Below, one piece after another: positions 11,895-29,762 of a stretch of DNA of 64,000 nucleotides. The stretch's first letter is position 1. Each line of letters opens with the position of its first letter. The notes under the pieces are model-generated. The model ran no database searches and was not told the origin of the DNA. It worked only from the letters and a program-made list of their open reading frames with translations. The stretch comes from Candidatus Bipolaricaulota bacterium. Lineage in GTDB: Bacteria; Bipolaricaulota; Bipolaricaulia; Bipolaricaulales; Bipolaricaulaceae. The position numbers were made by a program, and so were the translations under genes. Location of the stretch: the NCBI GenBank assembly GCA_025060555.1, contig JANXBC010000001.1, forward strand, positions 8,904 to 72,903, in the 5' to 3' direction.

Positions 11895-14387
11895 TTACGG
11901 GGGATTAGCAACGGACACGGGTTGGCGTAGTTCACCCAGCGGCCGGATTTCCCGCGCCCGCGGGAGCACACGGATCTCGATGGTCCGTGACTCACCAGCC
12001 GTAAGGACTAGGACGTAAACCTCTTGCTCCACATAGTGCGGTGGCGCCATGGGGGGAAGCTCTACCCGGAGCTCCCAAGTCCCGGGGCAAAGCCCCTGGA
12101 AGAAGAAGCTTCCGCGGTCGTCGGTGAGCGTGCTATGCCGTACGGTTCCGTTGGTGAGGATCACCCTGGCCTGCGCTAGGGGGCGGTCCACCACCCACGT
12201 GTTCTTGTTGGTCAAGGTGAGCGCGTTGCCCGCTGGCCGGTAGGCGAGGACGTGGCCAGAGAGCGTGGCTGCGGGGACGAGGGCAATGCGTACAGTGGTT
12301 ACTTGACCCGCAACGATGCGCACGTTGAGAGGGAGCTCAGGCTGCGGGCAATAAAGGGGCATGGGGGTCAATATCTGAAGCTGGTAGTTTCCGGGGGCCA
12401 TGGGATAGAACCGGAATGCCCCTCCTGTTCCGGTCAAAGCCTGCTCCTTATCCAATTGCAACAGGACCCCTTCCAGGCCACGCTCACCGGGATCTTGAAC
12501 GCCGTTGGCGTTCTCGTCCACAAACACCACCCCCTCCACCCGCCCCATGGTCTCGAACAAGGGGAACGGCGCCTGGAAGCGTGCTTCGAAGTTAAGTCCT
12601 AGGAAACCCTGTTTCTTTGTAACCTGCGCGGTCCAATCCGCACCGCGCAGGCAAAAGCTGAGTTCTTCTTCACCCAAAAGGACCAAGCGGAGCTCACCCC
12701 AAAGCCCCATCGGGAAAGGAAACGTGGTCCCAAGGCAAAGCTCGCTTCGCACCGTGCCCGAAAACCACTGGGTCACCTCACCCGCCATGCAGAGGGAGTA
12801 ATTGGTGGTCGACCAATATGTGAGGTGACCCTTCAAGGTGAAAGTGGCCACGGAGACGGTGGCGAGCCGGTCAGCGGAGCTCAAGAATTCGCCAAGGATG
12901 GACCAGGAAAGCGGGCGCGCGCTGTCATAAAACCCTAGGCACAGCTTGGTATCCAGCGTATCCAACGACGCTGGACCTTCGTCGCGCTTTCCCTCGAGCT
13001 CCAAGGAAACGCGGAAATGCAGGGTACGCAAGAAGTTTGGGCTGAAGCCAAGGCGCCCAAGCACCCGAATACAAGTTCCCTCCCCAGTGTAAGAGAAACG
13101 CGCAAAGAAGGGCAACCACTCCCCACAAAGGCCTACGGTAACCTTGGAACCCCAGGAAAGTTCCCCGGAAATGGCCGGGCTTCCATGGGTGGAGATGCTC
13201 AGGGATGGCGAATTCCCCACTTGGAATTTGAAGGAAGTTTGGTCCGAGAACAGTGTCCCCAAGAGGACGAAATCATCACCAAGTTGAGAATAAAGGTCCA
13301 GCAAAATCTTATCTAGTCGGAAGTAAAAATGGAAGAGGGTTTCTCCGTCGTAGAAATAAATTGTGGATTGGTAGGCGCAAGCCAAGGGATGATAGGAGTA
13401 CCGTAGACCCAGGCCGCTTACGTCCCCGATAGGCGTGGTATAGCCTATTTGTCCCAGCCGTATTTCCCAAGACGGTTCACGGTACTCCACCCATCCGTCC
13501 AGAAATTCTCTTCCTTTTGGCGAAAGCGCGAGTTTCCCAGTTGCGGCGGCGTAACGGTTAGGGGCGATCATCCCGCCTAGAAAGAGGCAGAACTCCGAGG
13601 AGAAGCTATCTGTGAGCTTTCCGGTCCAGGAGAGCCGCGCGGGGACAAGGGGAAACAGGGAGATGGAGACCCGCTCTGGCGGCGGAGGCAGAACCGTTGT
13701 CCAGATCCAGCCCGCCTCATAAACCTCAGGATCGGCTAAAGACCGCACCGTGACCCAGCAGCCGCTGCGCTCCCCAGGCTTTGCCGTTTCCGGGAGGCTG
13801 AGGCTCAGCGTGACCTCTGCCGCCTCCCCGGGCATGAGGTGCACCACGCGTGGAAAAAGGTCAAAACGCCAGGGCGTGTTCACCTCGACCTGGAAGGAGT
13901 CCAAGACGTTCCCGCGATTGATCACCCAGAGGGTGTAGGTGATTTTTGTGCCCGGCCAAGCCTGGGTACCTGCGGGAAGCCGAAGCTCTACCCCGGCTTG
14001 CGGGAGCACAAGCACGCGGGCCTTAGTTTCCGCAGTGTGAGCGGGCACGGTGTGGCTTTGAACCCGCACTCCAATCTCATGTTCCCCTGCCGGCGTCAAG
14101 GCTGACACGAACAGCGAGACCAGTACAACCTTGGTCTCGCCCGGCCCGAGCTCTACCGTCTCCGGGGCCACGAGAACTGAAATCCCTGGGGGAAGAGCAA
14201 ATGAGACCCCGTATGTATCGAGAAAATTCGCCAGGTTTGTGAAGCGGAAGGCGAGGGTGGTTACGGAGCGCGGGGCCACCGTGCGCTCCGGAGAGATACA
14301 TACCAGGGAAACCGGCGCGGCGAAAACGAAAGCGGAAAAGAAGCCCAGAAGAACGGCGCTGAATAACGTCTTCTTCCCGGGCTTCAT
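11895..14387 (-). CDS. Locus A large protein: signal peptide, NEW3/CARDB-like Ig domains, central beta-barrel-like region, SdrD-B/CarboxypepD_reg-like C-terminal domains (putative usher-like or anchor component)
   Basis: ATG at 14387 preceded by GAGGGGG. Signal peptide MKPGKKTLFSAVLLGFFSAFVFA. Repeats of the type LGPGETKVV.V.L. The ~370-aa centre shows amphipathic beta-strand periodicity and ends FEARF. The C-terminus carries VFVDENANGVQDPGE and DDRGSFFFQGLCPGTWEL motifs. The function is inferred. Confidence 0.85.
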   Translation of the reverse strand: MKPGKKTLFSAVLLGFFSAFVFAAPVSLVCISPERTVAPRSVTTLAFRFTNLANFLDTYGVSFALPPGISVLVAPETVELGPGETKVVLVSLFVSALTPAGEHEIGVRVQSHTVPAHTAETKARVLVLPQAGVELRLPAGTQAWPGTKITYTLWVINRGNVLDSFQVEVNTPWRFDLFPRVVHLMPGEAAEVTLSLSLPETAKPGERSGCWVTVRSLADPEVYEAGWIWTTVLPPPPERVSISLFPLVPARLSWTGKLTDSFSSEFCLFLGGMIAPNRYAAATGKLALSPKGREFLDGWVEYREPSWEIRLGQIGYTTPIGDVSGLGLRYSYHPLACAYQSTIYFYDGETLFHFYFRLDKILLDLYSQLGDDFVLLGTLFSDQTSFKFQVGNSPSLSISTHGSPAISGELSWGSKVTVGLCGEWLPFFARFSYTGEGTCIRVLGRLGFSPNFLRTLHFRVSLELEGKRDEGPASLDTLDTKLCLGFYDSARPLSWSILGEFLSSADRLATVSVATFTLKGHLTYWSTTNYSLCMAGEVTQWFSGTVRSELCLGTTFPFPMGLWGELRLVLLGEEELSFCLRGADWTAQVTKKQGFLGLNFEARFQAPFPLFETMGRVEGVVFVDENANGVQDPGERGLEGVLLQLDKEQALTGTGGAFRFYPMAPGNYQLQILTPMPLYCPQPELPLNVRIVAGQVTTVRIALVPAATLSGHVLAYRPAGNALTLTNKNTWVVDRPLAQARVILTNGTVRHSTLTDDRGSFFFQGLCPGTWELRVELPPMAPPHYVEQEVYVLVLTAGESRTIEIRVLPRAREIRPLGELRQPVSVANPP

Positions 14388-14395
14388 GTTCCCCC

Positions 14396-15205
14396 TCATC
14401 TGGCCTCGAGTGTTACTTGGGCACCCCACACGCACTCATCCAGGTTGTCCACGATAAGGAGGGCGGGGTAGGTGCCGGGCTTGAGGAGGGGCAAAGCGAT
14501 GGTTTGGCGGACTGAGCAACCAGGAAGGATCGTACGCTGAGTTTCCACCGCGAACCGGCCTAGATTTTCTCCCTCGGTACTGTAAAGCTCCAAATACACC
14601 ACCGGCCGGAGACGCCGCTCACCCGTGTTCTCCAGGTCCACTTGGAACACGAGCCCTTCCTCCGTCCGGTTAACCCTTGCGTTTGATAATCTCAAATTGC
14701 ACGCCCCCAGGGCTCCGGCGATATCGGTGATCACGAGCACGGCGTATTGCACAATCTGCACCACGCCCACCACGATTTCGCCCGCCCCGGCCAGCGGAGG
14801 GGCAGGCGCAGCGGGGGTGATGAGTATTACACACCAGTAGCTGCCCCGAAGCATCGGATCCGCCGGAACGTTGATACGGTAACGCACAACGGTTTCTTCA
14901 CCGGGGCCCAAGGTGAATTGCTTGGGAAAAACTTCCAGCCAGCCTGCGTTCGTGCGGGGGTTCGTGCCCGGCTCGGCGTAAGCAACCCGACCATCAGCGT
15001 ACATGAGAAAATCACGTATGCTGACATTGACCGTCACCACTCCCTCGGACTTGCTGCGCACAACGATCTCACCGGAGTAGGTGCGACCTGGCTCCACGAA
15101 AAATTCGTGTCGGAGGCCGCCCTCGATCTCCACCACGGGCATTGGTTGGCCACCTACCACCAAGGAAAGGAACACCGCTAATTCCATCCCTAAAAGGATT
15201 TTCAT
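14396..15205 (-). CDS. Locus A secreted two-Ig-domain protein (DUF916/DUF3324-like, PapD-chaperone-like architecture)
   Basis: Signal peptide. Segment AGWLEVFPKQFTLGPGEETVVRYRINVPADPMLRGSYWCVILI aligns by eye with the locus B homologue (25833-26858). Confidence 0.85.
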   Translation of the reverse strand: MKILLGMELAVFLSLVVGGQPMPVVEIEGGLRHEFFVEPGRTYSGEIVVRSKSEGVVTVNVSIRDFLMYADGRVAYAEPGTNPRTNAGWLEVFPKQFTLGPGEETVVRYRINVPADPMLRGSYWCVILITPAAPAPPLAGAGEIVVGVVQIVQYAVLVITDIAGALGACNLRLSNARVNRTEEGLVFQVDLENTGERRLRPVVYLELYSTEGENLGRFAVETQRTILPGCSVRQTIALPLLKPGTYPALLIVDNLDECVWGAQVTLEAR

Positions 15206-15464
15206 GCTCCACCTCTAAGCCGCCTGCCGTTGTTCATCCGCTGTGCTGGCCGCGCTCCTAGTTTTTGTCCTTGAGGCTTCCCAGCAAAGACGGCGCTGCT
15301 GGCACAGAAAGCGCGTTGAGCGCAGGGAAGATAAATCCACGAAAGACAGCAAAAAGAACGGACAAGAATCGCTTAAGGTTGCGAAATACTATGATCAACC
15401 CCGTTTTTGCCCGGCACAACCTGGTTTGGGAAAAACCATGGAGTCCGAGGTCTACCCTACACTG

Positions 15465-15941
15465 TTAGTCAAGCTGCGCCAGCGTGTAGACCAGGGTGAT
15501 CGTGAAAGTTGCGCCAACGAAACTACGATCGGTTACACCGCTTGCGTCAACCATGAGGTACACATCCCTCGTTTGGTCCTGACCAGGGGCGATATCAGTG
15601 TAAAGCCGGACCGCCTCATAAAGCGGGCCTTCAAGGTCAAGCTCGGCCCAATCGGTCCCATTCGTGCTGATCTTGAGGACGAAGCCCGTGGGAACAGTCC
15701 CAGTAATGCTCTGCACACCCACTTGGATATCGCGGTTTGTATGGTCTGTGGTGTATGTGATCGTGAGCTTACCGCTCGTTGCAAAGGACAATCGCGCAAC
15801 AGTTATATTCAAATGCGCCGGAGCAATTATCCTGTCAGGATATGCTGGGTCTATGGTCACTGTGACAGTCTGTGTCGCGGTTACCGCTAATACCCGCAAG
15901 CTAAACCCAAGAATTACCGATGCCAAAATTGCCCTGCGCAT
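15465..15941 (-). CDS. Locus A small secreted beta-rich subunit (pilin-like, 158 aa)
   Basis: Signal peptide MRRAILASVILGFSLRVLA. Strong RBS AAGGAGAAGGAGGTG and its own promoter. The C-terminus ATFTITLVYTLAQLD is shared with the C-domain of the 16105-17058 product. Confidence 0.9.
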   Translation of the reverse strand: MRRAILASVILGFSLRVLAVTATQTVTVTIDPAYPDRIIAPAHLNITVARLSFATSGKLTITYTTDHTNRDIQVGVQSITGTVPTGFVLKISTNGTDWAELDLEGPLYEAVRLYTDIAPGQDQTRDVYLMVDASGVTDRSFVGATFTITLVYTLAQLD

Positions 15942-16023
15942 CCGCCCACCTCCTTCTCCTTAACCCACAACCGCGTCCGTCTTCCTGTGCAAATCTTTTT
16001 CTGAACAACAAAATAAGCACTTT

Positions 16024-16052
16024 ATTATGATCTTGGAAAAGTATGTCGTCAA
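16024..16052 (-). promoter_or_regulatory. Near-consensus sigma70 promoter for the small-subunit gene of locus A
   Basis: On the minus strand: TTGACG (16052-16047), 17-nt spacer, CATAAT (16029-16024). Confidence 0.6.
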
Positions 16053-16104
16053 TAGCTGGACATTCGTAGCTAGCGCGATCCCGCAGGGCAAAAATAAAGG
16101 ATGC

Positions 16105-17058
16105 TCAGCTTATTAGCAGTGTGTAGACTAGAATGACGGTGAGGGAAGCTCCCACGTAACTCCGTGGTACCTCACGCGCCTCTACTTTCAGCTGCAGGGT
16201 AAATGAACCGGATCCGGAGAGATTTGTAACTATGGTCACAGCGTTGTACGGCTCTGAAAGCGGGAGTTCTACGTAACCTAGCTGCGCTGGCCCTTTCACC
16301 CACAGGCGTAACCCCGGGGGAACCGCAGGATAGACGTTCTGTACTCCCACGATAATGCTGCCTCCCGGAGGAACATAGGAATAGGTAACTATGAGGTCTT
16401 CGCTTTCCGCAACGGCCCCGCGCGCCACCCGGGGGCTCCAATCACTAGGGGCGGTGATATTGGGAAGCGCGTAGTACACAGTGATCTCCGCCGCGTCCAC
16501 GAAGCGTGTGCCTGCCGTGGTTCCAGACCCCACCCGTAGGCCAAAGCCCTGGGCGTTGATGTCCGCCGCTGTCCAGGAAGTTCCCCAAAGGTCCGTTGCG
16601 CTGCCCCAAGATTTCCATCCTGTTTCCGTGCAAGTGGTAGCCACACCTGGGCTAACTGTCTTATGACTTCCCACACGATTTCCGTTCTTAAGGAGAAAAA
16701 GGCCGAAGGCCCCGGCGGCGCTATGGCCGGCCTTGAGGGAAACTTTTATCCCAAGGATCGTGGCCATGGCGGGGATTTGGAAACCAAAGCCGCCAAGATA
16801 GAGATAAGCGTTGTTCTCGGTGGTTGTGGCACAGGTACCGTCAGCGGTGCGCAAAGCACTGCCCGCCGCAAGCCACGGGGTGGGAGCATCGGGCTCGTTT
16901 GGGAGAACAACACCCGCAAAACGACTCTGAAAATAGGGCTGGCAAAATGCCCGATAAGGTAAGAAGACCACCAAAGCTAGAAACGAAACTAATAGAAACA
17001 TGCTGCAAAAGCTTCCTTGCCTAGCAGGCCCTGCAAGCCTTCCCATGAATTTTAGCAT
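16105..17058 (-). CDS. Locus A two-domain secreted protein: novel N-domain plus subunit-like C-domain (tip-adhesin-like); start uncertain (17109, 17058, 17046 or 17001)
   Basis: Hydrophobic signal MFLLVSFLALVVFLPYRAFC. The N-domain shares the pattern IP..I.GI.V ... TDLWG..W ... VD...I.VYY with the locus B protein at 24862-25791. The C-domain ends SLTVILVYTLLIS, like the 158-aa subunit. Confidence 0.8.
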   Translation of the reverse strand: MLKFMGRLAGPARQGSFCSMFLLVSFLALVVFLPYRAFCQPYFQSRFAGVVLPNEPDAPTPWLAAGSALRTADGTCATTTENNAYLYLGGFGFQIPAMATILGIKVSLKAGHSAAGAFGLFLLKNGNRVGSHKTVSPGVATTCTETGWKSWGSATDLWGTSWTAADINAQGFGLRVGSGTTAGTRFVDAAEITVYYALPNITAPSDWSPRVARGAVAESEDLIVTYSYVPPGGSIIVGVQNVYPAVPPGLRLWVKGPAQLGYVELPLSEPYNAVTIVTNLSGSGSFTLQLKVEAREVPRSYVGASLTVILVYTLLIS

Positions 17059-17312
17059 CCTAAAAATTGCCCCGAATATTTCCCCCAAACTGCGAAAGGA
17101 ATGATACAACGGCCATGCGCGGTTGTGGAGTGAGGCCGGAAAATATGCGGTTTAATGCATGGCAATTGTGCCTGGGTGTTTAGCACCCGCGCGTATGTAT
17201 TCAAGCGGACATTTCCAGCGCTGTTTTTCCATAATTCGTTTCCAACCTTGACATCCACTTTCGGCCTGGTAACATTGGCCCTTCGGTTTTGGCTATATAA
17301 AGGACGGGGAGA

Positions 17313-19385
17313 ATGGAAAACGTGCTGATTCAGGGCGGGTTGGCTGGGGCGGTTGTCGGGGCTTTAGCCGTATTAATATCTTTTTTTCTTTACCGGCATG
17401 TTATGCGTCAGGACCCAGGCACTTCCAAGATGCAAGCTATCGCCCATTTCATCGAAGAAGGAGCACGAGCCTACCTTTTCCGGCAGAATGTGACCCTGTT
17501 CCTTTTTCTTGGGGTTTTGGCGCCTGTCATTGGCGTCCTTTTTGCCGTGACCAGCGGTGCGGGGCGCGGAGTGGCTGCGGCGCTGGCCTATCTTCTGGGG
17601 GCTGGCTGCTCCACAGCGGCGGCGTCTTTGGGAATGATCGCGGCGGTGCGGGCGAATGTGCGCACCGCGGCCGCGGCACAAAAGGGCCTCAAACCCGCAT
17701 TCACTGTCGCCTATTTCGGCGGGGCTGTGATGGGGTTGGGCATCGTGGGCATGGCCCTCCTCGGGATCAGCCTCATCTACTATATTTGCCGATTCGGCCT
17801 GGGCTGGACGGAAGGGGAGGCCACGGGCACAGCCTTGGGGTTCAGCTTCGGCGCAAGCGCATTGGCTCTTTTTGCTAAGGCTGGGGGTGGTATCTACACG
17901 AAAACCGCGGACATCAGCGCGGATCTCGTGGGGAAAGTGGAATTAGGGATCCCTGAGGATGACCCGCGGAACCCCGCGGTGATTGCGGATAACGTGGGCG
18001 ACAATGTGGGCGATGTGGCCGGTATGGGGGCTGATCTGGTGGACTCCTATATTGCCTCCATTGTGGCGGCCATGATCTTGGGGGCTGAGTCCGGCGGTGG
18101 GGCGTTCACCATCCTCCCTGTTCTCATCTCCGCTGTCGGTCTCCTTTCTTCTCTTTTCGGAACGTTCATCGTGCGGGTGCTAGTGCGGGGCAAGCCGGGC
18201 GCAGCCATGAACTTCGGCACCCTTGCTACTTCTGGGCTTTTCCTCCTCCTGCTTTTCGTTGTGACGTATAAAAGCGGCCTATCTGGACAACAATGGCTTG
18301 GCGTTTTTCTTCCTACCCTGGCAGGGCTCGCGGCGGGCTTGGTGATCGGGTTAACCACCGACTGCTTCACCTCCATTGACCGCGCGCCCACGCGGCGCAC
18401 CGCGGAGGCGGCCAGCCGGGGCACGGCCATCAATATCCTCCTGGGCTTTTCTTACGGGCTTGTGAGCATAGTCCCTTCGATCCTCGGGATCTGTGTCGCC
18501 ACGTACGCGGCTTGGCGATTTGCCGAGATTTTTGGGGTCAGCCCGTTTTATGGGATCGGGATCTCCGCGGTGGGCATGCTTTCTATCGTGGCTACAATCA
18601 TCTCTGGAGACGCCTTTGGTCCGGTGTCAGATAACGCGCGGGGGATCGCCGAGCAAGGAGGACTTGGCGGAGAAGTGATGGAAATAGTCGATGCTTTGGA
18701 TGCGCAGGGCAACACATCTAAGGCCATTACCAAAGGCTTCGCTATCGGTGCGGCAGCGCTCACCGTGCTCGCCTTGTTCGCGGCATACACGCATCTTGCT
18801 GGCATCGACATCATGCGCGGCATCAACCTCATGAGCCATACTGTCATCATCGGGCTCTTCTTGGGAGCGATGATGCCCCCCCTTCTCTCCGCTTTGCTCA
18901 TCCTTGCTGTTGGGCGCAACGCGGAGCGCATGATCGACGAGATCCGCCGACAGTTCCGGGAGATCCCCGGCCTTCTTGCTGGGCAGGCCAACCCCGACTA
19001 CCGGAGGTGCGTGGATATCGCCACACGTGGAGCCTTGCGGGAACTCCTCTTCCCCTGCTCCCTGGCCATCGTTGTACCGGTGCTCGTGTTTTTGGTGCTG
19101 GGCAAAGAGGCCTTAGCGGCGTTCCTGGGTGGCAGCATCCTGACCGGCATCATTTTTGCTCTCTTCATGGCTAACTCCGGTGGCGCCTGGGACAACGCTA
19201 AGAAGTACATCGAAAACGGCGCTTTTGGTGGAAAAGGCTCTGAGGCCCACAAGGCCGCAGTAGTGGGGGACACCGTGGGTGACCCATTCAAGGACACAGC
19301 TGGACCTTCTTTGAACACCATGATCACCGTCATGTCCCTTGCCGCTGAGGTGTTCGTGCCCATCATCCTTTTGGTCTTGGGCTGA
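17313..19385 (+). CDS. hppA: Membrane-bound proton/sodium-translocating pyrophosphatase
   Basis: GGGIYTKTADISADLVGKVE, DNVGDNVGD and DTVGDPFKDTAGPSLN motifs. 690 aa, polytopic. Confidence 0.95.
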   Translation: MENVLIQGGLAGAVVGALAVLISFFLYRHVMRQDPGTSKMQAIAHFIEEGARAYLFRQNVTLFLFLGVLAPVIGVLFAVTSGAGRGVAAALAYLLGAGCSTAAASLGMIAAVRANVRTAAAAQKGLKPAFTVAYFGGAVMGLGIVGMALLGISLIYYICRFGLGWTEGEATGTALGFSFGASALALFAKAGGGIYTKTADISADLVGKVELGIPEDDPRNPAVIADNVGDNVGDVAGMGADLVDSYIASIVAAMILGAESGGGAFTILPVLISAVGLLSSLFGTFIVRVLVRGKPGAAMNFGTLATSGLFLLLLFVVTYKSGLSGQQWLGVFLPTLAGLAAGLVIGLTTDCFTSIDRAPTRRTAEAASRGTAINILLGFSYGLVSIVPSILGICVATYAAWRFAEIFGVSPFYGIGISAVGMLSIVATIISGDAFGPVSDNARGIAEQGGLGGEVMEIVDALDAQGNTSKAITKGFAIGAAALTVLALFAAYTHLAGIDIMRGINLMSHTVIIGLFLGAMMPPLLSALLILAVGRNAERMIDEIRRQFREIPGLLAGQANPDYRRCVDIATRGALRELLFPCSLAIVVPVLVFLVLGKEALAAFLGGSILTGIIFALFMANSGGAWDNAKKYIENGAFGGKGSEAHKAAVVGDTVGDPFKDTAGPSLNTMITVMSLAAEVFVPIILLVLG

Positions 19386-23555: not shown

Positions 23556-23648
23556 CCTGGCCTTCCGATAAAGGCAAACCCGTCGCAAGGCGGGGGCGCA
23601 AAGCCACAGGTCCCTCAGGGACGGCTGGGCTGCCGAAGAATGGCCAGG
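23556..23648 (+). promoter_or_regulatory. c-di-GMP-I (GEMM-I) riboswitch aptamer, copy 1 (core 23565-23638)
   Basis: Contains GGCAAACC. Helix CCCGUC/GGCGGG is capped by the GNRA loop GCAA. Also GCGCAAAGCC, hairpin GUCCC-UCA-GGGAC, and GGGCUGCCGAAG. Closing helix CCUGGCC (23556-62) pairs with GGCCAGG (23642-48). Confidence 0.8.
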
Positions 23649-24083
23649 AGATGGCTGCTGTTCATGATGGCATGCGCTTTGGGCTTTCCGGGCCTTGCCG
23701 GAAGTGTCTCCCGAACCGCTACCGTCTCCCTTTCCATCCCCGCCTTGAGCGTTCTTTCTCTCCCTGGGCGAGGGCTTTCCGGTCGGGAAATAGAGCTGGA
23801 GATTAGGCCCGATGAGCTGGTCCAGGGCGTTCTGCTCGTACCCCTTGAGGTAAAAAGCAATGTTCCGTGGGCGGTTACGGCACGGGTTCTCGCCGAGGCT
23901 CGTGCCGATCCCGTAGTCGGAGTACAGGGCGGCCCGGAGGTCTTGGTGGGAACGGAAGAGATCCCCCTCCTCTCGGGTCGGTCGGGGAAACATGAGCTCA
24001 CCTTGGTTGTAAAATTGGCCAATCTGGGGCAAGCACAGGACAAGGTGAGGCTCATGTTGAAGATAGCGGGAATGGGTCAATGA
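23640..24083 (+). CDS. Small secreted protein (147 aa), divergent paralogue of the locus B subunits; possibly decaying
   Basis: Signal peptide MARRWLLFMMACALGFPGLAGS. TATVSLSIPALSVLSL and VKSNVPWAVTARV parallel TATFTVPTLIRLQLS and VWSNRPWTLSVAA of the next gene. It lacks the C-terminal YTL motif. A competing antisense frame exists. Confidence 0.5.
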   Translation: MARRWLLFMMACALGFPGLAGSVSRTATVSLSIPALSVLSLPGRGLSGREIELEIRPDELVQGVLLVPLEVKSNVPWAVTARVLAEARADPVVGVQGGPEVLVGTEEIPLLSGRSGKHELTLVVKLANLGQAQDKVRLMLKIAGMGQ

Positions 24084-24132
24084 GGGACCCAGTTGGGAAA
24101 GGAGGTGAGAGCCGAAAGAAGATTTAGGTGTT

Positions 24133-24219
24133 GGGGTGACCGATAAAGGCAAACCCGTCGCAAGGCGGGGGCGCAAAGCCACAGGTCCCTCAGGGACGGC
24201 TGGGCTGCCGAAGCACCCC
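24133..24219 (+). promoter_or_regulatory. c-di-GMP-I (GEMM-I) riboswitch aptamer, copy 2 (core 24140-24213)
   Basis: The core is 74/74 identical to copy 1. It has a different closing helix: GGGGUG (24133-38) pairs with CACCCC (24214-19). Lies 66 nt upstream of the 24285 start codon. Confidence 0.8.
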
Positions 24220-24284
24220 AAGAGAAGCCAAAAACTCCCGGGGCAAGGAGGCCCGGTAAACAAAACTTCTCTTGGAGGTGCTCA

Positions 24285-24800
24285 ATGAAGAGCGTGAAGG
24301 TTTTGGCGGTTTTAGTGGCTGGAGTGATGGGCGTGGTGAGCGGGATGGCTCAAAGTGTGACAGCGAACTCCACAGCGACGTTTACGGTGCCGACGTTGAT
24401 TCGGTTGCAGCTCAGCGCTTCCACCATCAACTTCGGGACCCTCACCGAGGGTGACTACGATGTGGGCTACAAGGACGCCCTGAGCGCCCAGGTCGTGTAT
24501 GTTTGGAGCAACCGGCCTTGGACGCTCTCCGTGGCGGCGAACAGCGCGGCCTGGAACGGCCCGTGGGCCAAGCCCGCAAGCGACCTGCTTTTGCGTGTGG
24601 CTTCCGTGAACCGGCCGGAGCGCATCTCTTATTACCTAAACACCCTCACCGGCCTCACCACGAGCGGATTCACCGTTGCCCAGGGTCAACCGGGCGGGAA
24701 CTTCCAGCACACCATGGACTTCCGCGTTCTGGTGAGCTGGGACAACGACGTGGCCGGCAACTACTCGCTCGGCTTCACCTACACCCTCACCGCGCCGTGA
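24285..24800 (+). CDS. Locus B small secreted beta-rich subunit (pilin-like, 171 aa)
   Basis: RBS GGAGGTG. Signal peptide MKSVKVLAVLVAGVMGVVSGMAQS. The C-terminus is NYSLGFTYTLTAP. Confidence 0.9.
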   Translation: MKSVKVLAVLVAGVMGVVSGMAQSVTANSTATFTVPTLIRLQLSASTINFGTLTEGDYDVGYKDALSAQVVYVWSNRPWTLSVAANSAAWNGPWAKPASDLLLRVASVNRPERISYYLNTLTGLTTSGFTVAQGQPGGNFQHTMDFRVLVSWDNDVAGNYSLGFTYTLTAP

Positions 24801-24814
24801 CCCAGCGAAGGACG

Positions 24815-24852
24815 GGCAGCCCGGCTCCAGCGAAGAGCCGGGCTGCCTTTAT
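24815..24852 (+). terminator. Perfect 13-bp GC-rich hairpin after the small-subunit gene (attenuator or partial terminator)
   Basis: GGCAGCCCGGCTC (24815-27), loop CAGCGAA, GAGCCGGGCTGCC (24835-47), then TTTAT. Confidence 0.55.
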
Positions 24853-24861
24853 CCCGCTTCC

Positions 24862-25791
24862 ATGACCCGCAAACTCTTCCTCGGTTTAGTGGCATGGGGC
24901 CTCCTCGCGCTCCCCCTGGGGGCTCAGGACACAGGTTGGCGCAACCCCTCGCAAGACTATGGGGATTTTCGCAATCCCAAAGGGGCGTATTATGACGACA
25001 CGGATTACGCCTGGGCGGAACCCGGCCAAACCCACATCTTCTTTGGTTATGAATTCCTTATCCCGCAAACCGTAGAGATCGTGGGGATCGAGGTGCGTCT
25101 GGATGTTCGGCGCCACCCGGCAGGTGGGCCGTTCGTGGCGTATCTGGATGTGCAGCTTTCCGGGGACAGTGGCGCGACCTGGACGCGGGCCTACACTGCC
25201 GGCCCCATTGAGAGCGATTGGTCGGTCTTTATCCTGGGTGGCCCCACCGATCGGTGGGGAAGGGTCTGGCGTCCCGAGGAATTTGAGCCTTCCACGTTCA
25301 GGGTCCGCCTCACAGCCTGGGCGCCGCGCTGGCCCACGATTTACCTGGATTGGGTGGCTGTGCGCATTTACTACAGCACCGGCCTCACTCTAGAGGTGGC
25401 CCCCAAAACGGTGTCCTTGGGCACGCTCACCCTCGTGGACTACGACCAGGGTTATTTGGACCGTCTGGGAGCCCAGGCCGTAGAGCTCCGCAGTCCGGCC
25501 ACTTGGATCTTGTCCATCGCAGCGGTGCGAGCGGTCTGGAGCTACACCGGAACTCTGCCCGACCCCAAAAAGCCTTGCGGCCACCTCCTCTGGCGGGTGG
25601 AGTATGCCGAGGGCTCCGTGGACGCGGTGGAAAAGGACTTCATCCCCCTTTCCCTTTCAGAGCGGGCGGTGGCCAAGGGCCGAGCAGGCATGGCTAAGGT
25701 CAGCCTGAGCTTCCGCCTCCTTGTGGACTACGACACCACCTGGCCCGGCACCTACTCCCTGGACTTCCGCTACACCCTCACCAGCCCTTAG
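24862..25791 (+). CDS. Locus B two-domain secreted protein: novel N-domain plus subunit-like C-domain (tip-adhesin-like)
   Basis: Signal peptide MTRKLFLGLVAWGLLALPLGAQD. The C-domain segment TVSLGTLTLVDYDQGYLDRLGAQAVELRSPATWILSIAA parallels the 171-aa subunit. Ends YSLDFRYTLTSP. Confidence 0.9.
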   Translation: MTRKLFLGLVAWGLLALPLGAQDTGWRNPSQDYGDFRNPKGAYYDDTDYAWAEPGQTHIFFGYEFLIPQTVEIVGIEVRLDVRRHPAGGPFVAYLDVQLSGDSGATWTRAYTAGPIESDWSVFILGGPTDRWGRVWRPEEFEPSTFRVRLTAWAPRWPTIYLDWVAVRIYYSTGLTLEVAPKTVSLGTLTLVDYDQGYLDRLGAQAVELRSPATWILSIAAVRAVWSYTGTLPDPKKPCGHLLWRVEYAEGSVDAVEKDFIPLSLSERAVAKGRAGMAKVSLSFRLLVDYDTTWPGTYSLDFRYTLTSP

Positions 25792-25832
25792 ACCTTGTGC
25801 CGAAGTTTTCCTTCCCCCAAGATTGCCCTCGT

Positions 25833-26858
25833 ATGAAGCGTGCTTTCCTCCTTAGCTTTTTCTTCGTGGGTTTCCTCGGTGCAGCTTTCGAAGTGAACCT
25901 CCTGGAGGTAGACCTCCAGGCCCGACCTGGCCTAGTCCTTCCCTTCTCGTTCATTGTCAGGAACGAACTCGCTCAGCCTGAGCAGATTGTCCTTTACCTC
26001 GGCGACTGGGACCGCAACGAGTTCGGGGAGAATCAGTTTTACCAACCCGGCACGCTTGCCCGCTCCTCCGCTGCTTGGATCACCGTGGTGCCCACCTCCT
26101 TCGTTCTTGGGGCCGGCGAGGTGCGGGAGATCCAGGGTTCGGTGCAGATCCCTAACGACGCCAAACCCGGTACTTACTGGGCCATGGTATTCGTCCAAGG
26201 TGAGCCCCGCCTTGTCCCGTATGAAGGGGTTATGGTCACTGTGACGCGCCGGATCGGCATCAAGGTTTACATCACGGTTGAGCCCGCGGAGGCGCGCGGT
26301 GAGCTTCGGGGCGTGGAGGTGCGCGGCCTCAATCCGCTTTGGGCCTGGGTGAAGTTTGCCAACACCGGCACCCGGAACCTGCGGGAGGTCCGGGCCACGC
26401 TGCGAGTGGTGGATGTACAGGGCCGTACCGTGGCGGAGGCCAGCGCCGCACCTGTGCCGTGCCTTCCCGGCGCGGAGCGGTGGATCCGGGTGAACACGGA
26501 TTTCCGCCCCTCGCCTGGGGTGTACCAGGTTCTCGCCACCGTGGATTACGGCGGTGAGGCTCTCCTAGGCTTGACCCTGCGTTTGGCCGTTCGTCCCCTC
26601 TCCTTGTTTCCCTTGGGAGAAGGGCTTGGGATCCCTCAAGACCTCGACGGCAACGGGTTCTACGAGGACGTGAACGGCGACAGCCTCTTCAATGAGGTGG
26701 ACGTAGAGGTCTTGAGGGGGAACCTCATGAGCCCGGTCGTGCGTGCCAACCTCCGGGCCTTTGATTTCAACAACGACGGGGTTGTGGACGAGCAAGACGT
26801 AAAAGCTCTAGAAGCTCTCCTCGCAGCCATCCCGGCCAAACTTCCCGCCGGAAGATAA
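25833..26858 (+). CDS. Locus B secreted two-Ig-domain protein (DUF916/DUF3324-like, chaperone-like) with a C-terminal dockerin-like module; alternative GTG start at 25797
   Basis: Signal peptide MKRAFLLSFFFVGFLGAA. Segment AAWITVVPTSFVLGAGEVREIQGSVQIPNDAKPGTYWAMVFV is homologous to the locus A protein. C-terminal motifs DVNGDSLFNEVDVEVL and DFNNDGVVDEQDVKAL. Confidence 0.85.
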   Translation: MKRAFLLSFFFVGFLGAAFEVNLLEVDLQARPGLVLPFSFIVRNELAQPEQIVLYLGDWDRNEFGENQFYQPGTLARSSAAWITVVPTSFVLGAGEVREIQGSVQIPNDAKPGTYWAMVFVQGEPRLVPYEGVMVTVTRRIGIKVYITVEPAEARGELRGVEVRGLNPLWAWVKFANTGTRNLREVRATLRVVDVQGRTVAEASAAPVPCLPGAERWIRVNTDFRPSPGVYQVLATVDYGGEALLGLTLRLAVRPLSLFPLGEGLGIPQDLDGNGFYEDVNGDSLFNEVDVEVLRGNLMSPVVRANLRAFDFNNDGVVDEQDVKALEALLAAIPAKLPAGR

Positions 26859-26903
26859 CAAAGCTCTCCCAGACTTAGGTCCTGCGGTCCCATAATTCCC
26901 CGG

Positions 26904-29762
26904 ATGCGAGTTTTTGTCGGCGTGACCCTCGCGGGGTTTCTCGCCTTAGGGCAGGGCCTGGAACTCCTCCGCCTTTCCCCGCCGGCGAAAGTCCGCCCCG
27001 GTGATTTTGCCGTCCAAGTTTGGCAGATCGCCAATCGCTCCCCTTCGCCTATACAGGCCAAATTGCGCCCAGAGATCCCCGCGGGCTGGGAGATCCTAGG
27101 GCTTCCCGAAGCTCTTTCCCTTGGCCCTGGGGAGGAGGAGTTTCTTTTCCTCACGCTTTACGTTCCGCGCACGGCCAAAAGCGGGGTGCAACCGGTGCGC
27201 ATTCTCCTTCGCTGGGATGGGGAGGAGGTGGTTGCGGAGGCTACGGTGGAGGTGGAAACCGTGGCTGCTCTCATCCTTTCTCCCCCGGCTTCCCAGGCCG
27301 CCCCGCCAGGCGCGTCCCTCACATTTCCGCTCCGCGTGACGAACCGGGGAAATGCCCTGGACCGTGTCACCTTAGAGGTGCGCACCGCCGCGGGCTGGCG
27401 AGTGGAAGTGAGCCCTACTGAGCTTCCCTTGGCCCCTGGCGAGACGGGCGAAGCCCGTGTCACCCTGACCCTTCCTGCGGAGGCCCAGGTGGGACTGGAG
27501 GTAGTCTTGGCTACGGCCCGTTCAAGTCTTGCCCCGGAAGTGGAGGCCCGCACTGCCTGGTACGTGGAGGTCCTTCCCCCTGGGCCGGAGCGCGTCCCCG
27601 TGCAGCTTTACGCAGAATTGGCGATGCAGGGGCTGGCGCGTTTGGCCTACGACTTCCTTTCCGGGACCGGCACCTCGTTTTTGGGTTTCACCGGCCGGGG
27701 GACTGTGCTCGACGGGGCTTTGGAGCTTGCCGCACGCTGGTCCGGCCCTTGGGCCGCCCAGCCCTTCCAACTTTTGGATTTCCAGGCCACCTACGTTACG
27801 GACGCTTTAGAGATGCACGCCGGCCGGGTGGGCTTCGCCTTCGATTCCCTCCTTTCCCCGCTTGGCTTTTGGGGCCTGGGCGCGGAGCTTTCCCTTGGGG
27901 ATGTAAACCTGGCTTTGGGCTCGGGCTGGGAAGGCGAGCGTGGCAGGGCCGGTGGGCGGTTGACGTTGCGCGCCACATGGGGTGAGACGGGCAGTGCCTA
28001 CCGAGAAGAGCGAGGCAGTGATCGGCACAGCCAAGCCGGCACGATTTGGCTCGCCCTCCAGGCCCTAGAAAACGTGCGCTTCCAGGCCGAGGGCGGCGCG
28101 GCCCAGGTGAACGGCCTCACCCGCTTCGCCGGAGAAATGCGCCTCACCTGGGAGATCCCCGAACTTTTCCTCCTCGAGGCCCGCGGGTATGCCGTTGACC
28201 CGGGTTTCCCCGCCCTTTCGCCGGATCGGGTGGGGTTCCTCCTTTCCGGACGTTTGGGCGCGGAGGAGGCCGGCTTCCGTTTCACCTGTGAGTGGCAACG
28301 CGATAACCTCCGTGATCTTTCCCGCACTACACGCGTTTGGCAAGGGGCACAGGCAAGCTGGGATTTCTTTCCCATTGGGTGGCCTTTGCACTTTGGTTTC
28401 GGCCTTTCTTTGCGGCGCGCAGCCGATCTCTCGCTTTCGCCCATGCTGGATGAACGCACGGCCCACGCCGAAGTCATCGCTTCTTTCTCCTACCAAGATT
28501 TCACCCTCGGCGCGCAAGGGACATACACTTATTTTCAAAACCTTGTCTCTGGCTTCGCCTGGACGCGGGTTGAGTCTCGAGAATGGCTGGATCTTCGTTT
28601 TTCCCCGAATGTCTTGGTCTCCGTAGAATTTCGGCAAGCACGCTTTTCTTCTCCGAAAGAGGAAAGGACACAAGATGAGGCGGCATTGGTCCTCTCTGTG
28701 GACGAAAAGCTCCGGCTTTCTTGGGAGTATGGGTGTGCAGGTGGTCTAGCCCGCGCGGAATTCACCTGGGAGCCCGCCGCGGCTTTGACCATAAAGCTTG
28801 GGGCCGAGGCCAACTGGCAAGAAGCTGGACGACCCTTACGCTTCGGGGCCTCTTTGGAATTCACTCATAGCTTTTCTTGGGCTCCGCCTTTCTTGCCCGC
28901 CTTTGGCGTCCTTTCCGGCATAGTTTTTGCCGATTTAAACGGAAACAGCCGCCGTGATCGGGGTGAACCCGGCGTCCCTGGAGCAGTCCTCGCCCTCGAC
29001 GATGTCCAGGTTTCCTCCGGGAAAGACGGGGAATTTCGCTTCCCTGCGCGGGCACCCGGTGTGTACACGTTGCAAGTAGTACACACTCCCGCGGGGTACG
29101 CGGCCCCCCTTCACGAGCTATTGGTTTCTCTCGAGCTTGGGGAAAAGATGGAGATCGCCCTTCCCCTTTTGCCTTTGGCGAGGCTGGACGGCCTAATTTT
29201 TCTTGACGTCAATGCGGATGGGGTCTGGACGCCGGGCGAACAAGGTTTAAGTCGGGCTTATGTGCGCATTGTTCCTTCGGAGGGGAAGGTGCTCGAGGTT
29301 CCTTCCGATAGCCAGGGCCGATTCAGCTGGCCCGAGCTTCTTCCGGGGAAATATCGGGTGGAACTGGTTTTGGAATCCCTTCCTCCGCGTCACGAGCCGA
29401 CCACGCCAGTGGTGGCAGAGCTCGTTTTGCTGCCCGGAGAGAAGAAGAACGTGACTTTTGGCGTACGGGAGCGGCCCCGCCCGGTGGTAGTGATCCAGCC
29501 GCCGTTAGCAGATTTCACCTGGACGCCAAGCATTCCCAAGGCTGGTGAACCCGTGCTCTTCGACGGCACCCTCTCCCAGGCCTTCAACGGCGAAATCGTG
29601 AGCTACGCCTGGGATTTCAACAATGATGGCCACGTTGAGGCAGAAGGTGTGCGAGTAACCTGGGTTTTCCCGGAAGCGGGCTTCTATCTTGTCGCCCTCA
29701 TTGTCACCGACTCCGCTGGCTTCACCGGCCAGACCCAGTACCTTCTCCAAGTTCGCCCCTAA
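26904..29762 (+). CDS. Locus B large protein: signal peptide, NEW3/CARDB-like Ig domains, central beta-barrel-like region, SdrD-B/CarboxypepD_reg-like repeats, C-terminal PKD domain
   Basis: Signal peptide MRVFVGVTLAGFLALGQG. Junction LPPGPERVPV is shared with locus A (LPPPPERVSI). A ~430-aa amphipathic-strand region ends SLEFTHSF. Also VFADLNGNSRRDRGEPG, and PKD motif YAWDFNNDG...TDSAG. Confidence 0.9.
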   Translation: MRVFVGVTLAGFLALGQGLELLRLSPPAKVRPGDFAVQVWQIANRSPSPIQAKLRPEIPAGWEILGLPEALSLGPGEEEFLFLTLYVPRTAKSGVQPVRILLRWDGEEVVAEATVEVETVAALILSPPASQAAPPGASLTFPLRVTNRGNALDRVTLEVRTAAGWRVEVSPTELPLAPGETGEARVTLTLPAEAQVGLEVVLATARSSLAPEVEARTAWYVEVLPPGPERVPVQLYAELAMQGLARLAYDFLSGTGTSFLGFTGRGTVLDGALELAARWSGPWAAQPFQLLDFQATYVTDALEMHAGRVGFAFDSLLSPLGFWGLGAELSLGDVNLALGSGWEGERGRAGGRLTLRATWGETGSAYREERGSDRHSQAGTIWLALQALENVRFQAEGGAAQVNGLTRFAGEMRLTWEIPELFLLEARGYAVDPGFPALSPDRVGFLLSGRLGAEEAGFRFTCEWQRDNLRDLSRTTRVWQGAQASWDFFPIGWPLHFGFGLSLRRAADLSLSPMLDERTAHAEVIASFSYQDFTLGAQGTYTYFQNLVSGFAWTRVESREWLDLRFSPNVLVSVEFRQARFSSPKEERTQDEAALVLSVDEKLRLSWEYGCAGGLARAEFTWEPAAALTIKLGAEANWQEAGRPLRFGASLEFTHSFSWAPPFLPAFGVLSGIVFADLNGNSRRDRGEPGVPGAVLALDDVQVSSGKDGEFRFPARAPGVYTLQVVHTPAGYAAPLHELLVSLELGEKMEIALPLLPLARLDGLIFLDVNADGVWTPGEQGLSRAYVRIVPSEGKVLEVPSDSQGRFSWPELLPGKYRVELVLESLPPRHEPTTPVVAELVLLPGEKKNVTFGVRERPRPVVVIQPPLADFTWTPSIPKAGEPVLFDGTLSQAFNGEIVSYAWDFNNDGHVEAEGVRVTWVFPEAGFYLVALIVTDSAGFTGQTQYLLQVRP

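What the first reader, a model, noticed from the sequence alone, without database searches (positions are those of the whole stretch)
11895..17109. Locus A: a second, sequence-divergent copy of the same four-component architecture, without a riboswitch
On the minus strand the order is a 318-334-aa two-domain subunit, own promoter, 158-aa small subunit, a 259-nt gap, a 269-aa two-Ig-domain protein, then an 830-aa barrel-containing protein.

Evidence of homology with locus B:
- The accessory proteins are clearly homologous. AGWLEVFPKQFTLGPGEETVVRYRINVPADPMLRGSYWCVILI aligns with AAWITVVPTSFVLGAGEVREIQGSVQIPNDAKPGTYWAMVFV.
- The large proteins share the junction LPP(P/G)PERV(S/P).
- The N-domains of the two-domain subunits share a common pattern.

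The small subunits themselves have diverged into two families. I found no GEMM-like sequence in the 17110-17312 or 15942-16104 leaders. The two paralogous systems therefore appear differently regulated, one by a second messenger and one not.
Basis: partly seen in the sequence, partly recalled or inferred. Interest (0 to 1): 0.75.

Follow-up and report, generated by a model that had tools for sequence, protein, structure and literature searches.

The report
Second usher-like surface-fibre gene cluster
Locus A is a real second, riboswitch-free copy of a four-gene cluster that most likely builds a surface fibre or adhesin, pairing a relative of the Gram-positive WxLIP protein with an outer-membrane barrel shaped like a pilus usher, a combination I could not find described.

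Summary
**Observation: confirmed.** All four minus-strand genes sit at the stated coordinates in a Candidatus Bipolaricaulota genome.

**A versus B homology**
- Large protein: E=9e-35, full length.
- Accessory: E=2e-12.
- N-domain of the two-domain subunit: E=2e-6.
- Small subunits: related only weakly.

**Regulation.** No Rfam family matches the A leaders, even at E<=10. Locus B carries two identical c-di-GMP-I-GGC aptamers. This split holds in every relative examined.

**What it is**
- The accessory is a homologue of the enterococcal WxL-interacting protein WxLIP (profile E=6e-7; best Foldseek hit). It lacks WxLIP's membrane anchor, and its next-best structural matches are pilus chaperones.
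- The large protein models as two Ig domains, a roughly 22-24-strand barrel and two C-terminal sandwiches. Its best PDB matches are the FimD and PapC ushers.
- The small and two-domain subunits mirror "small WxL" and "large WxL" proteins.

**Best reading.** This is a chaperone-usher-like export and assembly pathway for WxL-like subunits in a two-membrane bacterium. Locus A is its constitutively or otherwise regulated paralogue.

**Not shown.** The subunit fold, donor-strand exchange and polymerisation are untested.

The parts
16105..17109 (-). Two-domain subunit, the putative tip or adhesin subunit. It has a signal peptide, an N-terminal domain of unknown fold, and a C-terminal domain homologous to the small subunit. 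The true start is probably the ATG at 17058 or 17046.
   Evidence: ORF. The N-domain matches the locus B two-domain protein at E=2e-6. An alignment of 11 A- and B-type proteins is colinear, with 18 invariant columns. The C-domain matches the small subunit at E=2.6e-17 through the L001 orthologue. No Pfam, NCBIfam or PDB sequence relative was found.
16024..16052 (-). Sigma-70-like promoter consensus, TTGACG-17-CATAAT, in the 163-nt spacer ahead of the small-subunit gene.
   Evidence: 10 of 12 matches. This is a consensus match only and does not show function.
15465..15941 (-). Small subunit of 158 aa, the putative major structural subunit. It has a signal peptide, the N-terminal strand TQTVTVTI, and the C-terminal strand TFTITLVYTL.
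   Evidence: ORF. An orthologue lies in L001-L003 (35% identity). It ranks second of 149 window ORFs for an HMM built from canonical WxL domains. It has no Pfam family.
15206..15464 (-). Non-coding gap of 259 nt. In relatives L001-L003 this position holds a frameshifted second two-domain gene.
   Evidence: No remnant is detectable by tblastn or blastn, and there is no Rfam match.
14396..15205 (-). Accessory protein of 269 aa. It is an exported protein with two Ig-like domains, a WxLIP (DUF916+DUF3324) homologue without the transmembrane helix, and a putative periplasmic chaperone.
   Evidence: - AF2 model: pLDDT 87, pTM 0.79, two beta-sandwiches.
- Foldseek top hits are E. faecium WxLIP 9i25_C and 9i1y (E=7e-14, TM 0.51-0.57). 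The chaperones CfaA, CsuC, FimC, Caf1M and PapD follow.
- The family profile matches EfmWxLIP1 at E=6.4e-7 across both domains.
- Sub-threshold Pfam hits to WxLIP_PGBD and WxLIP_HBD occur in family members.
11895..14387 (-). Large protein of 830 aa from the ATG at 14387; the ORF extends to 14435. It is a putative usher-like outer-membrane translocase.
   Evidence: - Homologous to the locus B large protein at E=9e-35.
- AF2 model with pLDDT 76.
- Foldseek top hits are the FimD usher (9fw9_D 1.5e-12; 3rfz), PapC (7lhg_C, 6cd2_C), and the FimD translocation domain 3ohn_A (TMt 0.41).
- No Pfam Usher hit and no usher in a PDB sequence-profile search.
13692..14315 (-). Large protein residues 25-232: two N-terminal Ig-like (NEW3/CARDB-type) domains. 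The conserved LPPPPERV linker follows them.
   Evidence: Pfam Ig_VWA7, FixG_C and NPCBM_assoc hits. AF2 strands with pLDDT 83-90. The linker is visible in the alignment.
12576..13640 (-). Large protein residues 250-604: a beta-barrel region of about 22-24 long antiparallel strands. A low-confidence insert at residues 306-357 may be plug-like.
   Evidence: AF2 secondary structure and pLDDT. No Pfam family matches at E<=10. The plug reading is inference only.
11958..12545 (-). Large protein residues 615-810: two C-terminal beta-sandwich domains (SdrD_B and CarboxypepD_reg types).
   Evidence: Pfam 4.3e-15 and 9.1e-13; AF2.
23564..29762 (+). Locus B, the comparator.
- Riboswitch 23564-23638, then a 147-aa gene at 23640-24083.
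- Riboswitch 24139-24213, then a 171-aa subunit at 24285-24800.
- Two-domain subunit at 24862-25791.
- Accessory with dockerin at 25797-26858.
- Large protein with PKD at 26904-29762.
   Evidence: The locus is conserved with synteny in other Bipolaricaulota.

Best explanation
Locus A encodes a complete envelope machine that works like a chaperone-usher pathway, built from parts related to Gram-positive WxL clusters.

**Proposed mechanism**
1. All four products carry N-terminal signal peptides (judged by eye) and are exported across the inner membrane.
2. The 269-aa accessory is a soluble WxLIP homologue with two Ig-like domains. It binds and stabilises the beta-rich subunits in the periplasm.
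3. The 830-aa protein forms a large outer-membrane barrel flanked by periplasmic Ig-like and transthyretin-like domains. Subunits are passed through it to the cell surface.
4. The 158-aa protein has its own strong promoter and is the bulk subunit.
5. The two-domain protein carries a variable N-terminal domain in front of a subunit-type domain. It is the distal, binding subunit, analogous to FimH or to 'large WxL'.

**Relation to locus B.** Locus A is an old paralogue of locus B. B is switched by two c-di-GMP-class riboswitches; A is not.

**Shown**
- Gene content and paralogy.
- WxLIP homology of the accessory.
- Usher-like predicted architecture of the large protein.
- Absence of any Rfam riboswitch in A.
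- Conservation of the subunit-accessory-large trio across phyla.

**Inferred**
- Periplasmic chaperoning.
- Translocation through the barrel.
- Strand complementation or polymerisation into a fibre.
- The adhesin role of the N-domain.
For: **Paralogy:**

**Accessory is WxLIP-like and chaperone-like**
- AF2 model with pLDDT 87.
- Foldseek top hits are 9i25_C and 9i1y WxLIP (7e-14), followed by more than 40 chaperone chains of CU pili with TMt about 0.5.
- Profile versus EfmWxLIP1: E=6.4e-7 over both domains.
- Pfam WxLIP_PGBD in 7 of 39 members (best 1.6e-6) and WxLIP_HBD in 3 of 39.

**Large protein is usher-like**
- AF2 domain order is Ig-Ig-barrel-sandwich-sandwich.
- FimD and PapC ushers are the top PDB matches.
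- Rhodothermales orthologues end in a LysM domain. This places the C-terminus in the periplasm, as in ushers.

**Host envelope.** Bipolaricaulota have an outer membrane or toga.

**Synteny.** The order subunit(s), accessory, large protein recurs in several lineages:
- Bipolaricaulota, both A and B types;
- Rhodothermales (L005-L008; ORFs read in L008);
- L024;
- metagenome loci L026-L028.

**Subunits resemble WxL proteins**
- The logic is the same: a small protein that is one domain, plus a larger protein with that domain at its C-terminus (PMC9772566, PMC10599100).
- B_s171 shares the motif layout and spacing of an Enterococcus small WxL: INFG / WTL / YTL..P versus ITFN / WTL / WNL..P.
- In rank tests, a canonical WxL HMM ranks B_s171 first, A_small second and B_two fourth of 149 window ORFs (P=7e-5).
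- An A-family HMM ranks five canonical WxL ORFs as the top 5 of 42 (P=5e-4).
- The signal-peptide-trimmed B HMM gives the same pattern.

**Promoter:** own promoter consensus ahead of the small subunit.
Against: - No sequence-level link exists to usher or PapD families.
- Foldseek TM-scores for the large protein are low (0.23-0.41). The model rests on only 8 sequences, and residues 306-357 have pLDDT below 50.
- The subunit fold was not modelled. No missing strand or donor strand has been shown.
- Pfam WxL (PF13731) does not hit any of 37 subunits scanned.
- hhalign against canonical WxL gives only P about 1e-3, probability 7-20%.
- The rank tests use related, compositionally similar beta-rich secreted proteins, so they overstate independence.
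- Canonical WxL proteins are not known to polymerise.
- Accessory B carries a dockerin, which is odd for a periplasmic chaperone.
- Some accessory homologues occur with no large protein nearby (L017, L018).
Confidence: 0.6

Rival explanations
1. A non-polymerising cell-surface complex, as proposed for Gram-positive WxL/Csc clusters. The subunits and accessory form a stoichiometric complex attached to peptidoglycan or the toga. The large protein is an anchoring platform or porin, not a translocase, and no fibre is made.
For: The accessory is a true WxLIP homologue. WxL clusters are described as surface complexes, not pili (PMC9772566, PMC10599100). Dockerin, PKD and LysM modules on components fit anchoring roles.
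Against: The accessory here has lost the membrane anchor that positions WxLIP. The large protein's best structural matches are ushers, full-length and in domain order. A separately promoted small subunit suggests it is needed in excess over the other components.
Confidence: 0.2
2. A carbohydrate-capture or cellulosome-like envelope complex. The Ig/NEW3/CBM-like domains bind polysaccharide, the barrel imports oligosaccharides, and the small proteins are binding modules. This follows the original Csc hypothesis for WxL clusters.
For: NPCBM_assoc/NEW3, PKD and dockerin hits. Siezen et al. 2006 (PMC1534035) proposed a carbohydrate-utilisation role for Csc clusters.
Against: No glycoside hydrolase or sugar transporter lies in or next to locus A or its relatives. 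c-di-GMP-class riboswitch control of locus B fits adhesion or biofilm better. The barrel's structural matches are ushers, not TonB-dependent or sugar porins.
Confidence: 0.1
3. The four genes are not one system. They are generic Ig-rich secreted proteins that happen to be adjacent, and the A/B similarity reflects only common Ig-like repeats.
For: Many Pfam hits are to promiscuous Ig-like families.
Against: The large proteins align across the barrel and linker, not only the Ig domains. The two-domain proteins are colinear over both domains. The same gene order recurs in several phyla. The accessory-to-large spacing is 8 nt.
Confidence: 0.03

Closest known systems
WxL gene clusters of Bacillota (small WxL + large WxL + WxLIP/DUF916-DUF3324; Csc clusters of Lactiplantibacillus, Enterococcus loci A-C)
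   Same: - The accessory is a sequence and structure homologue of WxLIP over both Ig-like domains.
- The cluster logic is the same: a small single-domain subunit, plus a larger protein carrying that domain at its C-terminus behind variable N-terminal domain(s).
- The B-type subunits reproduce the WxL motif layout and spacing.
- All components are secreted.
   Different: - The host has two membranes.
- The accessory has no C-terminal transmembrane helix.
- There is no LPXTG partner.
- An 830-950-aa usher-like outer-membrane barrel protein is added.
- The second Trp-x-Leu motif is Tyr-x-Leu, and A-type subunits have no Trp-x-Leu at all.
- The Pfam WxL model does not detect the subunits.
Chaperone-usher pili (classical Fim/Pap, archaic Csu, alternate CFA/I)
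   Same: - The four roles match: major subunit, two-domain tip subunit, a two-Ig-domain periplasmic partner, and a large outer-membrane barrel with N- and C-terminal periplasmic domains.
- Structural matches support this: ushers are the top hits for the large protein, and chaperones rank from 4th (6k73_B) and make up most of the top 50 for the accessory.
- The operon-like arrangement is similar.
   Different: - There is no detectable sequence relationship to the PapD, Usher, Fimbrial or SCPU families.
- The N-terminal region of the large protein is two NEW3-type Ig domains rather than a single usher NTD.
- Donor-strand complementation and exchange are untested here.
- The accessory is closer to WxLIP than to any CU chaperone.
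c-di-GMP riboswitch-controlled adhesin and pilin genes (e.g. Clostridioides difficile pilA1 and surface adhesins; my own knowledge, not checked here)
   Same: Locus B places c-di-GMP-class aptamers directly ahead of the structural subunit genes.
   Different: Locus A has none. The aptamers are the GGC variant class (RF03167), whose ligand I did not verify. There are two 100%-identical copies in one locus.

Membership tests
WxL cluster (Bacillota) | WxLIP protein with DUF916 (PGBD) followed by DUF3324 (HBD) Ig-like domains | tested here: met
   The family profile matches EfmWxLIP1 (9i25_C) at E=6.4e-7 over both domains, and it is the Foldseek top hit. Pfam hits stay below the gathering score: 14 bits for the window protein against a cut-off of 27.3, with a best member E-value of 1.6e-6.
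WxL cluster (Bacillota) | WxLIP anchored by a C-terminal transmembrane helix | tested here: not met
   Accessory A ends at the second Ig domain. Accessory B ends in a dockerin. Only the distant relative P0018 (L017) has the helix.
WxL cluster (Bacillota) | At least two adjacent proteins with a WxL domain (Pfam PF13731), one small and one large with the domain at the C-terminus | tested here: inconclusive
   The small-plus-two-domain architecture is present. PF13731 gives no hit at E<=10 in 37 subunits. The model scores only 32.8 bits on a genuine Enterococcus small WxL. hhalign gives P about 1e-3. Rank tests are positive.
WxL cluster (Bacillota) | Dual Trp-x-Leu motifs | tested here: not met
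   B_s171 has WTL at residues 79-81, but YTL at 166-168 replaces the second motif. A_small and A_two have only the C-terminal YTL and no Trp-x-Leu.
Chaperone-usher pili | Periplasmic chaperone with the PapD-like two-domain Ig fold | tested here: met
   This is met at the fold level only. CfaA, CsuC, FimC, Caf1M, SafB and PapD match at E=5e-10 to 1e-7 with TMt 0.46-0.59. No PapD Pfam hit was found.
Chaperone-usher pili | Outer-membrane usher: 24-strand barrel with plug, N-terminal domain and two C-terminal domains (Pfam Usher, PapC_N, PapC_C) | tested here: inconclusive
   The predicted architecture and the top Foldseek hits are ushers. However, TM-scores are 0.23-0.41, the strand count is only approximate, and a plug is not established. 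No Pfam or PDB sequence match exists.
Chaperone-usher pili | Subunits with an incomplete Ig fold completed by a donor strand from the chaperone or the next subunit | not tested
   Both structure-prediction jobs went to the large and accessory proteins. Only conserved N- and C-terminal beta-strand motifs were seen.
c-di-GMP-I-type riboswitch regulon | Aptamer in the 5' leader | tested here: not met
   There is no riboswitch match at E<=10 in 15100-17400. A-type relatives also have none. Locus B is positive.

The most novel reading that the evidence does not exclude
These loci may represent an undescribed, phylogenetically broad class of chaperone-usher-type fibre systems in bacteria with two membranes, whose chaperone is the orthologue of Gram-positive WxLIP.

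A profile of the accessory family finds 877 representative proteins at E<=1e-30 and about 17,000 at E<=1e-3. The named members I looked up or found in loci come from Bipolaricaulota, Rhodothermales, Saprospiraceae and Poribacteria.

If this reading is right, WxL clusters of Bacillota would be the single-membrane, usher-less descendants or cousins of a donor-strand assembly pathway. That would give the poorly understood WxL proteins a mechanism. It would also give the diderm-to-monoderm transition a concrete example of a machine that lost its outer-membrane part.
Probability: 0.35. Interest if true: 0.8.

Novelty: new variant of a known kind. Interest (0 to 1): 0.62.

Why it matters
- **Mechanism for WxL clusters.** WxL clusters are common in enterococci, listeriae and lactobacilli and are linked to adhesion and virulence, yet how they work is unclear. 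A two-membrane version, with a soluble WxLIP homologue beside an usher-shaped barrel, suggests WxLIP acts as an assembly chaperone. It would also tie WxL systems to the chaperone-usher principle.
- **Candidate appendages in Bipolaricaulota.** For this deep-branching, barely cultured phylum it names candidate genes for surface appendages. Pili were seen at the toga ends of the first isolate (bioRxiv 10.1101/2025.11.21.689855); any connection to these loci is speculation.
- **A natural regulatory comparison.** The two paralogues in one genome differ in control. One sits behind two identical c-di-GMP-class aptamers and one behind an ordinary promoter.

Tried and rejected
**Searches that found nothing**
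- Pfam and NCBIfam on all nine A and B proteins gave nothing for the subunits or the two-domain proteins.
- PDB sequence searches were empty or uninformative: the large protein hit only Ig-type domains. The accessory and two-domain proteins, the B-subunit profile and the two-domain profile gave only chance-level or no matches. The large-protein profile again hit only Ig and transthyretin domains.
- Pfam scans of 27 plus 10 subunits at E<=10 gave no WxL, SCPU, DUF4402 or Fimbrial hit.
- Literature searches found no paper linking WxL or DUF916 to ushers, chaperone-usher systems or donor strands, and no open paper for PDB 9i25.

**Results I set aside**
- hhalign of the subunit families against each other and against canonical WxL gave P=1e-3 to 2e-2, which is not significant.
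- An apparently strong hit of the deep B-family HMM on an Enterococcus small WxL (E=2e-6) was partly driven by signal-peptide similarity. After trimming it fell to E=0.25.

**Regulation and the gap**
- A sigma-54 promoter scan found fewer matches than chance and none in the A leaders.
- A search for a remnant of the extra two-domain gene in the 259-nt gap found nothing.

- Word-indexed homology searches badly under-report these families (10, 8 and 78 hits). The exhaustive profile search shows the accessory family is very large.
With A8 it returned only 4 loci.

**Explanation considered and rejected**
- That this is an archaic (Csu/SCPU-type) chaperone-usher member by sequence: there is no supporting hit.

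Full report

Yes.
- 16105-17109: 334-aa ORF, with in-frame ATGs at 17058 and 17046.
- 15465-15941: 158 aa.
- 15206-15464: a 259-nt gap.
- 14396-15205: 269 aa.
- 11895-14435: 846-aa ORF, or 830 aa from the ATG at 14387.

The 830-aa product is 100% identical to an NCBI 'hypothetical protein' of a Candidatus Bipolaricaulota MAG.

Locus B lies at 23564-29762 on the plus strand. Its order is:
- a c-di-GMP-I-GGC aptamer, then a 147-aa gene;
- a second aptamer, then a 171-aa gene;
- a 309-aa two-domain gene;
- a 353-aa accessory;
- a 952-aa large protein.

**2. Are A and B homologous beyond generic Ig repeats?**

Yes, for three of the four components.
- The large proteins align end to end (E=9e-35). 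The alignment includes the LPP(P/G)PERV linker and the central region, which has no Pfam family.
- The accessories align over both domains (E=2e-12).
- The two-domain proteins share their N-domain (E=2e-6). They are colinear over both domains in an 11-sequence alignment with 18 invariant columns.
- In each locus the C-domain of the two-domain protein is homologous to that locus's small subunit (E=1e-15 to 4e-22).

The small subunits of A and B do not match by BLASTP or convincingly by hhalign (P=0.005-0.02). They do pick each other out in rank tests. All share a C-terminal strand ending in Y-[TKR]-[LIF], which also appears in distant loci.

**3. Regulation**

- No Rfam family relevant to regulation matches 15100-17400, even at E<=10.
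- A promoter-like TTGACG-17-CATAAT site precedes the small-subunit gene.
- No sigma-54-type site lies in the leaders.
- Locus B's two aptamers score 75 bits each. They are 100% identical over exactly 74 nt.
- All six complete B-type loci from other genomes carry both aptamers. None of the A-type or Rhodothermales-type loci carries any.

The regulatory difference is thus a conserved property of the two lineages. The Rfam family is the GGC variant (RF03167). I did not verify its ligand.

**4. What the parts are**

*Accessory.*
- The AF2 model is confident (pLDDT 87, pTM 0.79) and shows two beta-sandwich domains.
- Its best PDB matches are the E. faecium WxL-interacting protein WxLIP, alone and bound to a long WxL protein (9i1y and 9i25_C; E=7e-14, TM 0.51-0.57).
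- Dozens of pilus chaperones follow: CfaA, CsuC, FimC, DraB, Caf1M, SafB and PapD.
- A sequence profile of the family finds EfmWxLIP1 at E=6.4e-7 across both domains.
- Family members give sub-threshold Pfam hits to WxLIP_PGBD and WxLIP_HBD.
- Unlike WxLIP, accessories A and B lack the C-terminal membrane helix. A distant relative (P0018, locus L017) has one.
- The family is very large: 877 representatives at E<=1e-30 and 16,940 at E<=1e-3. Named members come from Bipolaricaulota, Saprospiraceae and Poribacteria and from Rhodothermales.

*Large protein.*
- The AF2 model (pLDDT 76, from 8 sequences) shows a clear domain order:
  - two Ig-like domains at residues 25-232;
  - about 22-24 long antiparallel strands at residues 250-604, interrupted by a low-confidence insert at 306-357;
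  - two beta-sandwich domains at residues 615-810.
- The top PDB matches are the FimD usher in several states, PapC, and the isolated FimD translocation domain. E-values reach 1.5e-12, but TM-scores are only 0.23-0.41.
- There is no sequence-level link to ushers.
- Rhodothermales orthologues end in a LysM domain, which argues that the C-terminus is periplasmic.
- Bipolaricaulota have an outer membrane or toga.

*Subunits.* Published descriptions of WxL clusters match the layout here.
- They describe a small protein that is only a WxL domain, a large protein with N-terminal binding domains and a C-terminal WxL domain, and WxLIP.
- AF2 predicts that a DUF916 strand inserts next to the WxL N-terminal strand (PMC9772566, PMC10599100).

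I fetched canonical clusters from Enterococcus and Bacillus plasmids for comparison.
- *Motifs.* B_s171 and an Enterococcus small WxL share the same motifs at nearly the same positions:
  - INFG at 49-52, WTL at 79-81 and YTL..P at 166-171 in B_s171;
  - ITFN at 47-50, WTL at 81-83 and WNL..P at 165-170 in the Enterococcus protein.
- *Formal tests are weak.* Pfam WxL gives no hit. That model scores only 32.8 bits on a genuine small WxL. hhalign gives P about 1e-3.
- *Rank tests are positive.* After signal-peptide trimming, the top non-self hits of the B-family HMM among 883 ORFs are almost all of four kinds:
  - other subunit families;
  - 6 of the 7 canonical WxL domains;
  - A-type small subunits;
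  - members of the 147-aa family.

  These proteins are related and compositionally alike, so I treat the test as supportive only.
- *A discarded hit.* An untrimmed hit at E=2e-6 was partly due to signal peptides, and I discarded it.

**5. Distribution and history**

- The B-type locus is conserved with synteny in many Bipolaricaulota. Ornithine carbamoyltransferase and gltX lie downstream.
- Its 171-aa subunit has 78 clusters, and every cluster with a source name is from this phylum.
- The A-type locus is patchier and sits in different neighbourhoods.
- Accessory A is closer to Rhodothermales accessories (35% identity, E about 1e-44) than to accessory B. It is as close to the membrane-anchored L017 protein as it is to B.
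- In contrast, large protein A is closer to large protein B than to the Rhodothermales proteins. I cannot explain this discordance.
- The core trio of subunit(s), accessory and large protein recurs in Rhodothermales, L024 and three metagenome loci.
- Some accessory homologues stand alone beside sigma-54 activators.
- Relatives L001-L003 carry a frameshifted second two-domain gene where the window has its 259-nt gap. No remnant is detectable in the window.

**6. Most likely mechanism**

My confidence in this mechanism is 0.6. I read it as a chaperone-usher-like pathway.
1. Exported subunits are held by the soluble WxLIP-type accessory in the periplasm.
2. They are handed to the usher-like barrel.
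3. They are displayed or assembled on the surface.
4. The separately promoted 158-aa protein is the bulk subunit.
5. The two-domain protein is the distal binding subunit.

The homologies, predicted architectures, synteny and regulatory difference are shown. Chaperoning, translocation, strand exchange and polymerisation are inferred. The main rival, at about 0.2, is a non-polymerising WxL-type surface complex in which the large protein is an anchor.

**7. Novelty**

I found no paper connecting WxL/DUF916 proteins with ushers, chaperone-usher systems or donor strands. I also found no open paper for the 2026 WxLIP structures. The library does not cover subscription journals, so prior description cannot be excluded.

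I rate this a new variant of a known kind: a hybrid of WxL-cluster parts with an usher-like outer-membrane component. The narrow claim, that locus A is a riboswitch-less paralogue of B, is solid but modest. The wider implication is what makes it interesting.

Noticed in passing
window 23565-23638 and 24140-24213: The two c-di-GMP-I-GGC aptamers of locus B are 100% identical over exactly 74 nt, and the identity stops at the aptamer borders. The first ends 1 nt before the ATG of the 147-aa gene. The second lies 71 nt before the 171-aa gene. The double layout is conserved in six other genomes.
   Followed up: partly
window 23640-24083: A fifth locus B gene (147 aa, exported, behind the first riboswitch) has no counterpart in locus A. 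It is conserved in all B-type loci and shows only a weak profile similarity to the 171-aa subunit family (hhalign P=8e-4).
   Followed up: partly
L002 1980-2599 (also L001, L003): Relatives of locus A carry a frameshifted second copy of the two-domain subunit between the small subunit and the accessory. The window has only a 259-nt gap there (15206-15464), with no detectable remnant.
   Followed up: yes
window 25797-26858 and 26904-29762: Accessory B ends in a type I dockerin (residues 289-340) and large protein B in a PKD domain (residues 866-945). Neither module is present in locus A. A dockerin on a presumed periplasmic chaperone is unexplained.
   Followed up: no
L017 3569-9020: A metagenome contig carries a membrane-anchored accessory homologue (P0018) preceded by four subunit-like genes ending ...GxYTTTLTYxCTxxF. 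No usher-like gene lies in the 17 kb held. This looks like a single-membrane-style version, and none of these genes has a Pfam match.
   Followed up: partly
L008 5165-6535; L018 6216-7694; L019 533-2011: Sigma-54-dependent response regulators sit next to accessory homologues in Rhodothermales and in a phototroph-like contig. In L018 and L019 the accessory has no large protein beside it.
   Followed up: no
L006-L008 large proteins (e.g. L008 9731-12907): Rhodothermales versions of the large protein are about 1030-1060 aa and end in a LysM peptidoglycan-binding domain.
   Followed up: partly
window 15243-15890 (+): A 215-aa ORF lies antisense to the small-subunit gene and the gap. It has no support as a gene and is probably spurious.
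   Followed up: no
window 16105-17109 and 24862-25791 (N-terminal domains): The N-domain shared by the two-domain subunits has no relative in Pfam, NCBIfam or PDB sequences. Its conserved motifs are GIEV.L, GG.TD.WG..W, F.VR and D...V.VYY.
   Followed up: partly
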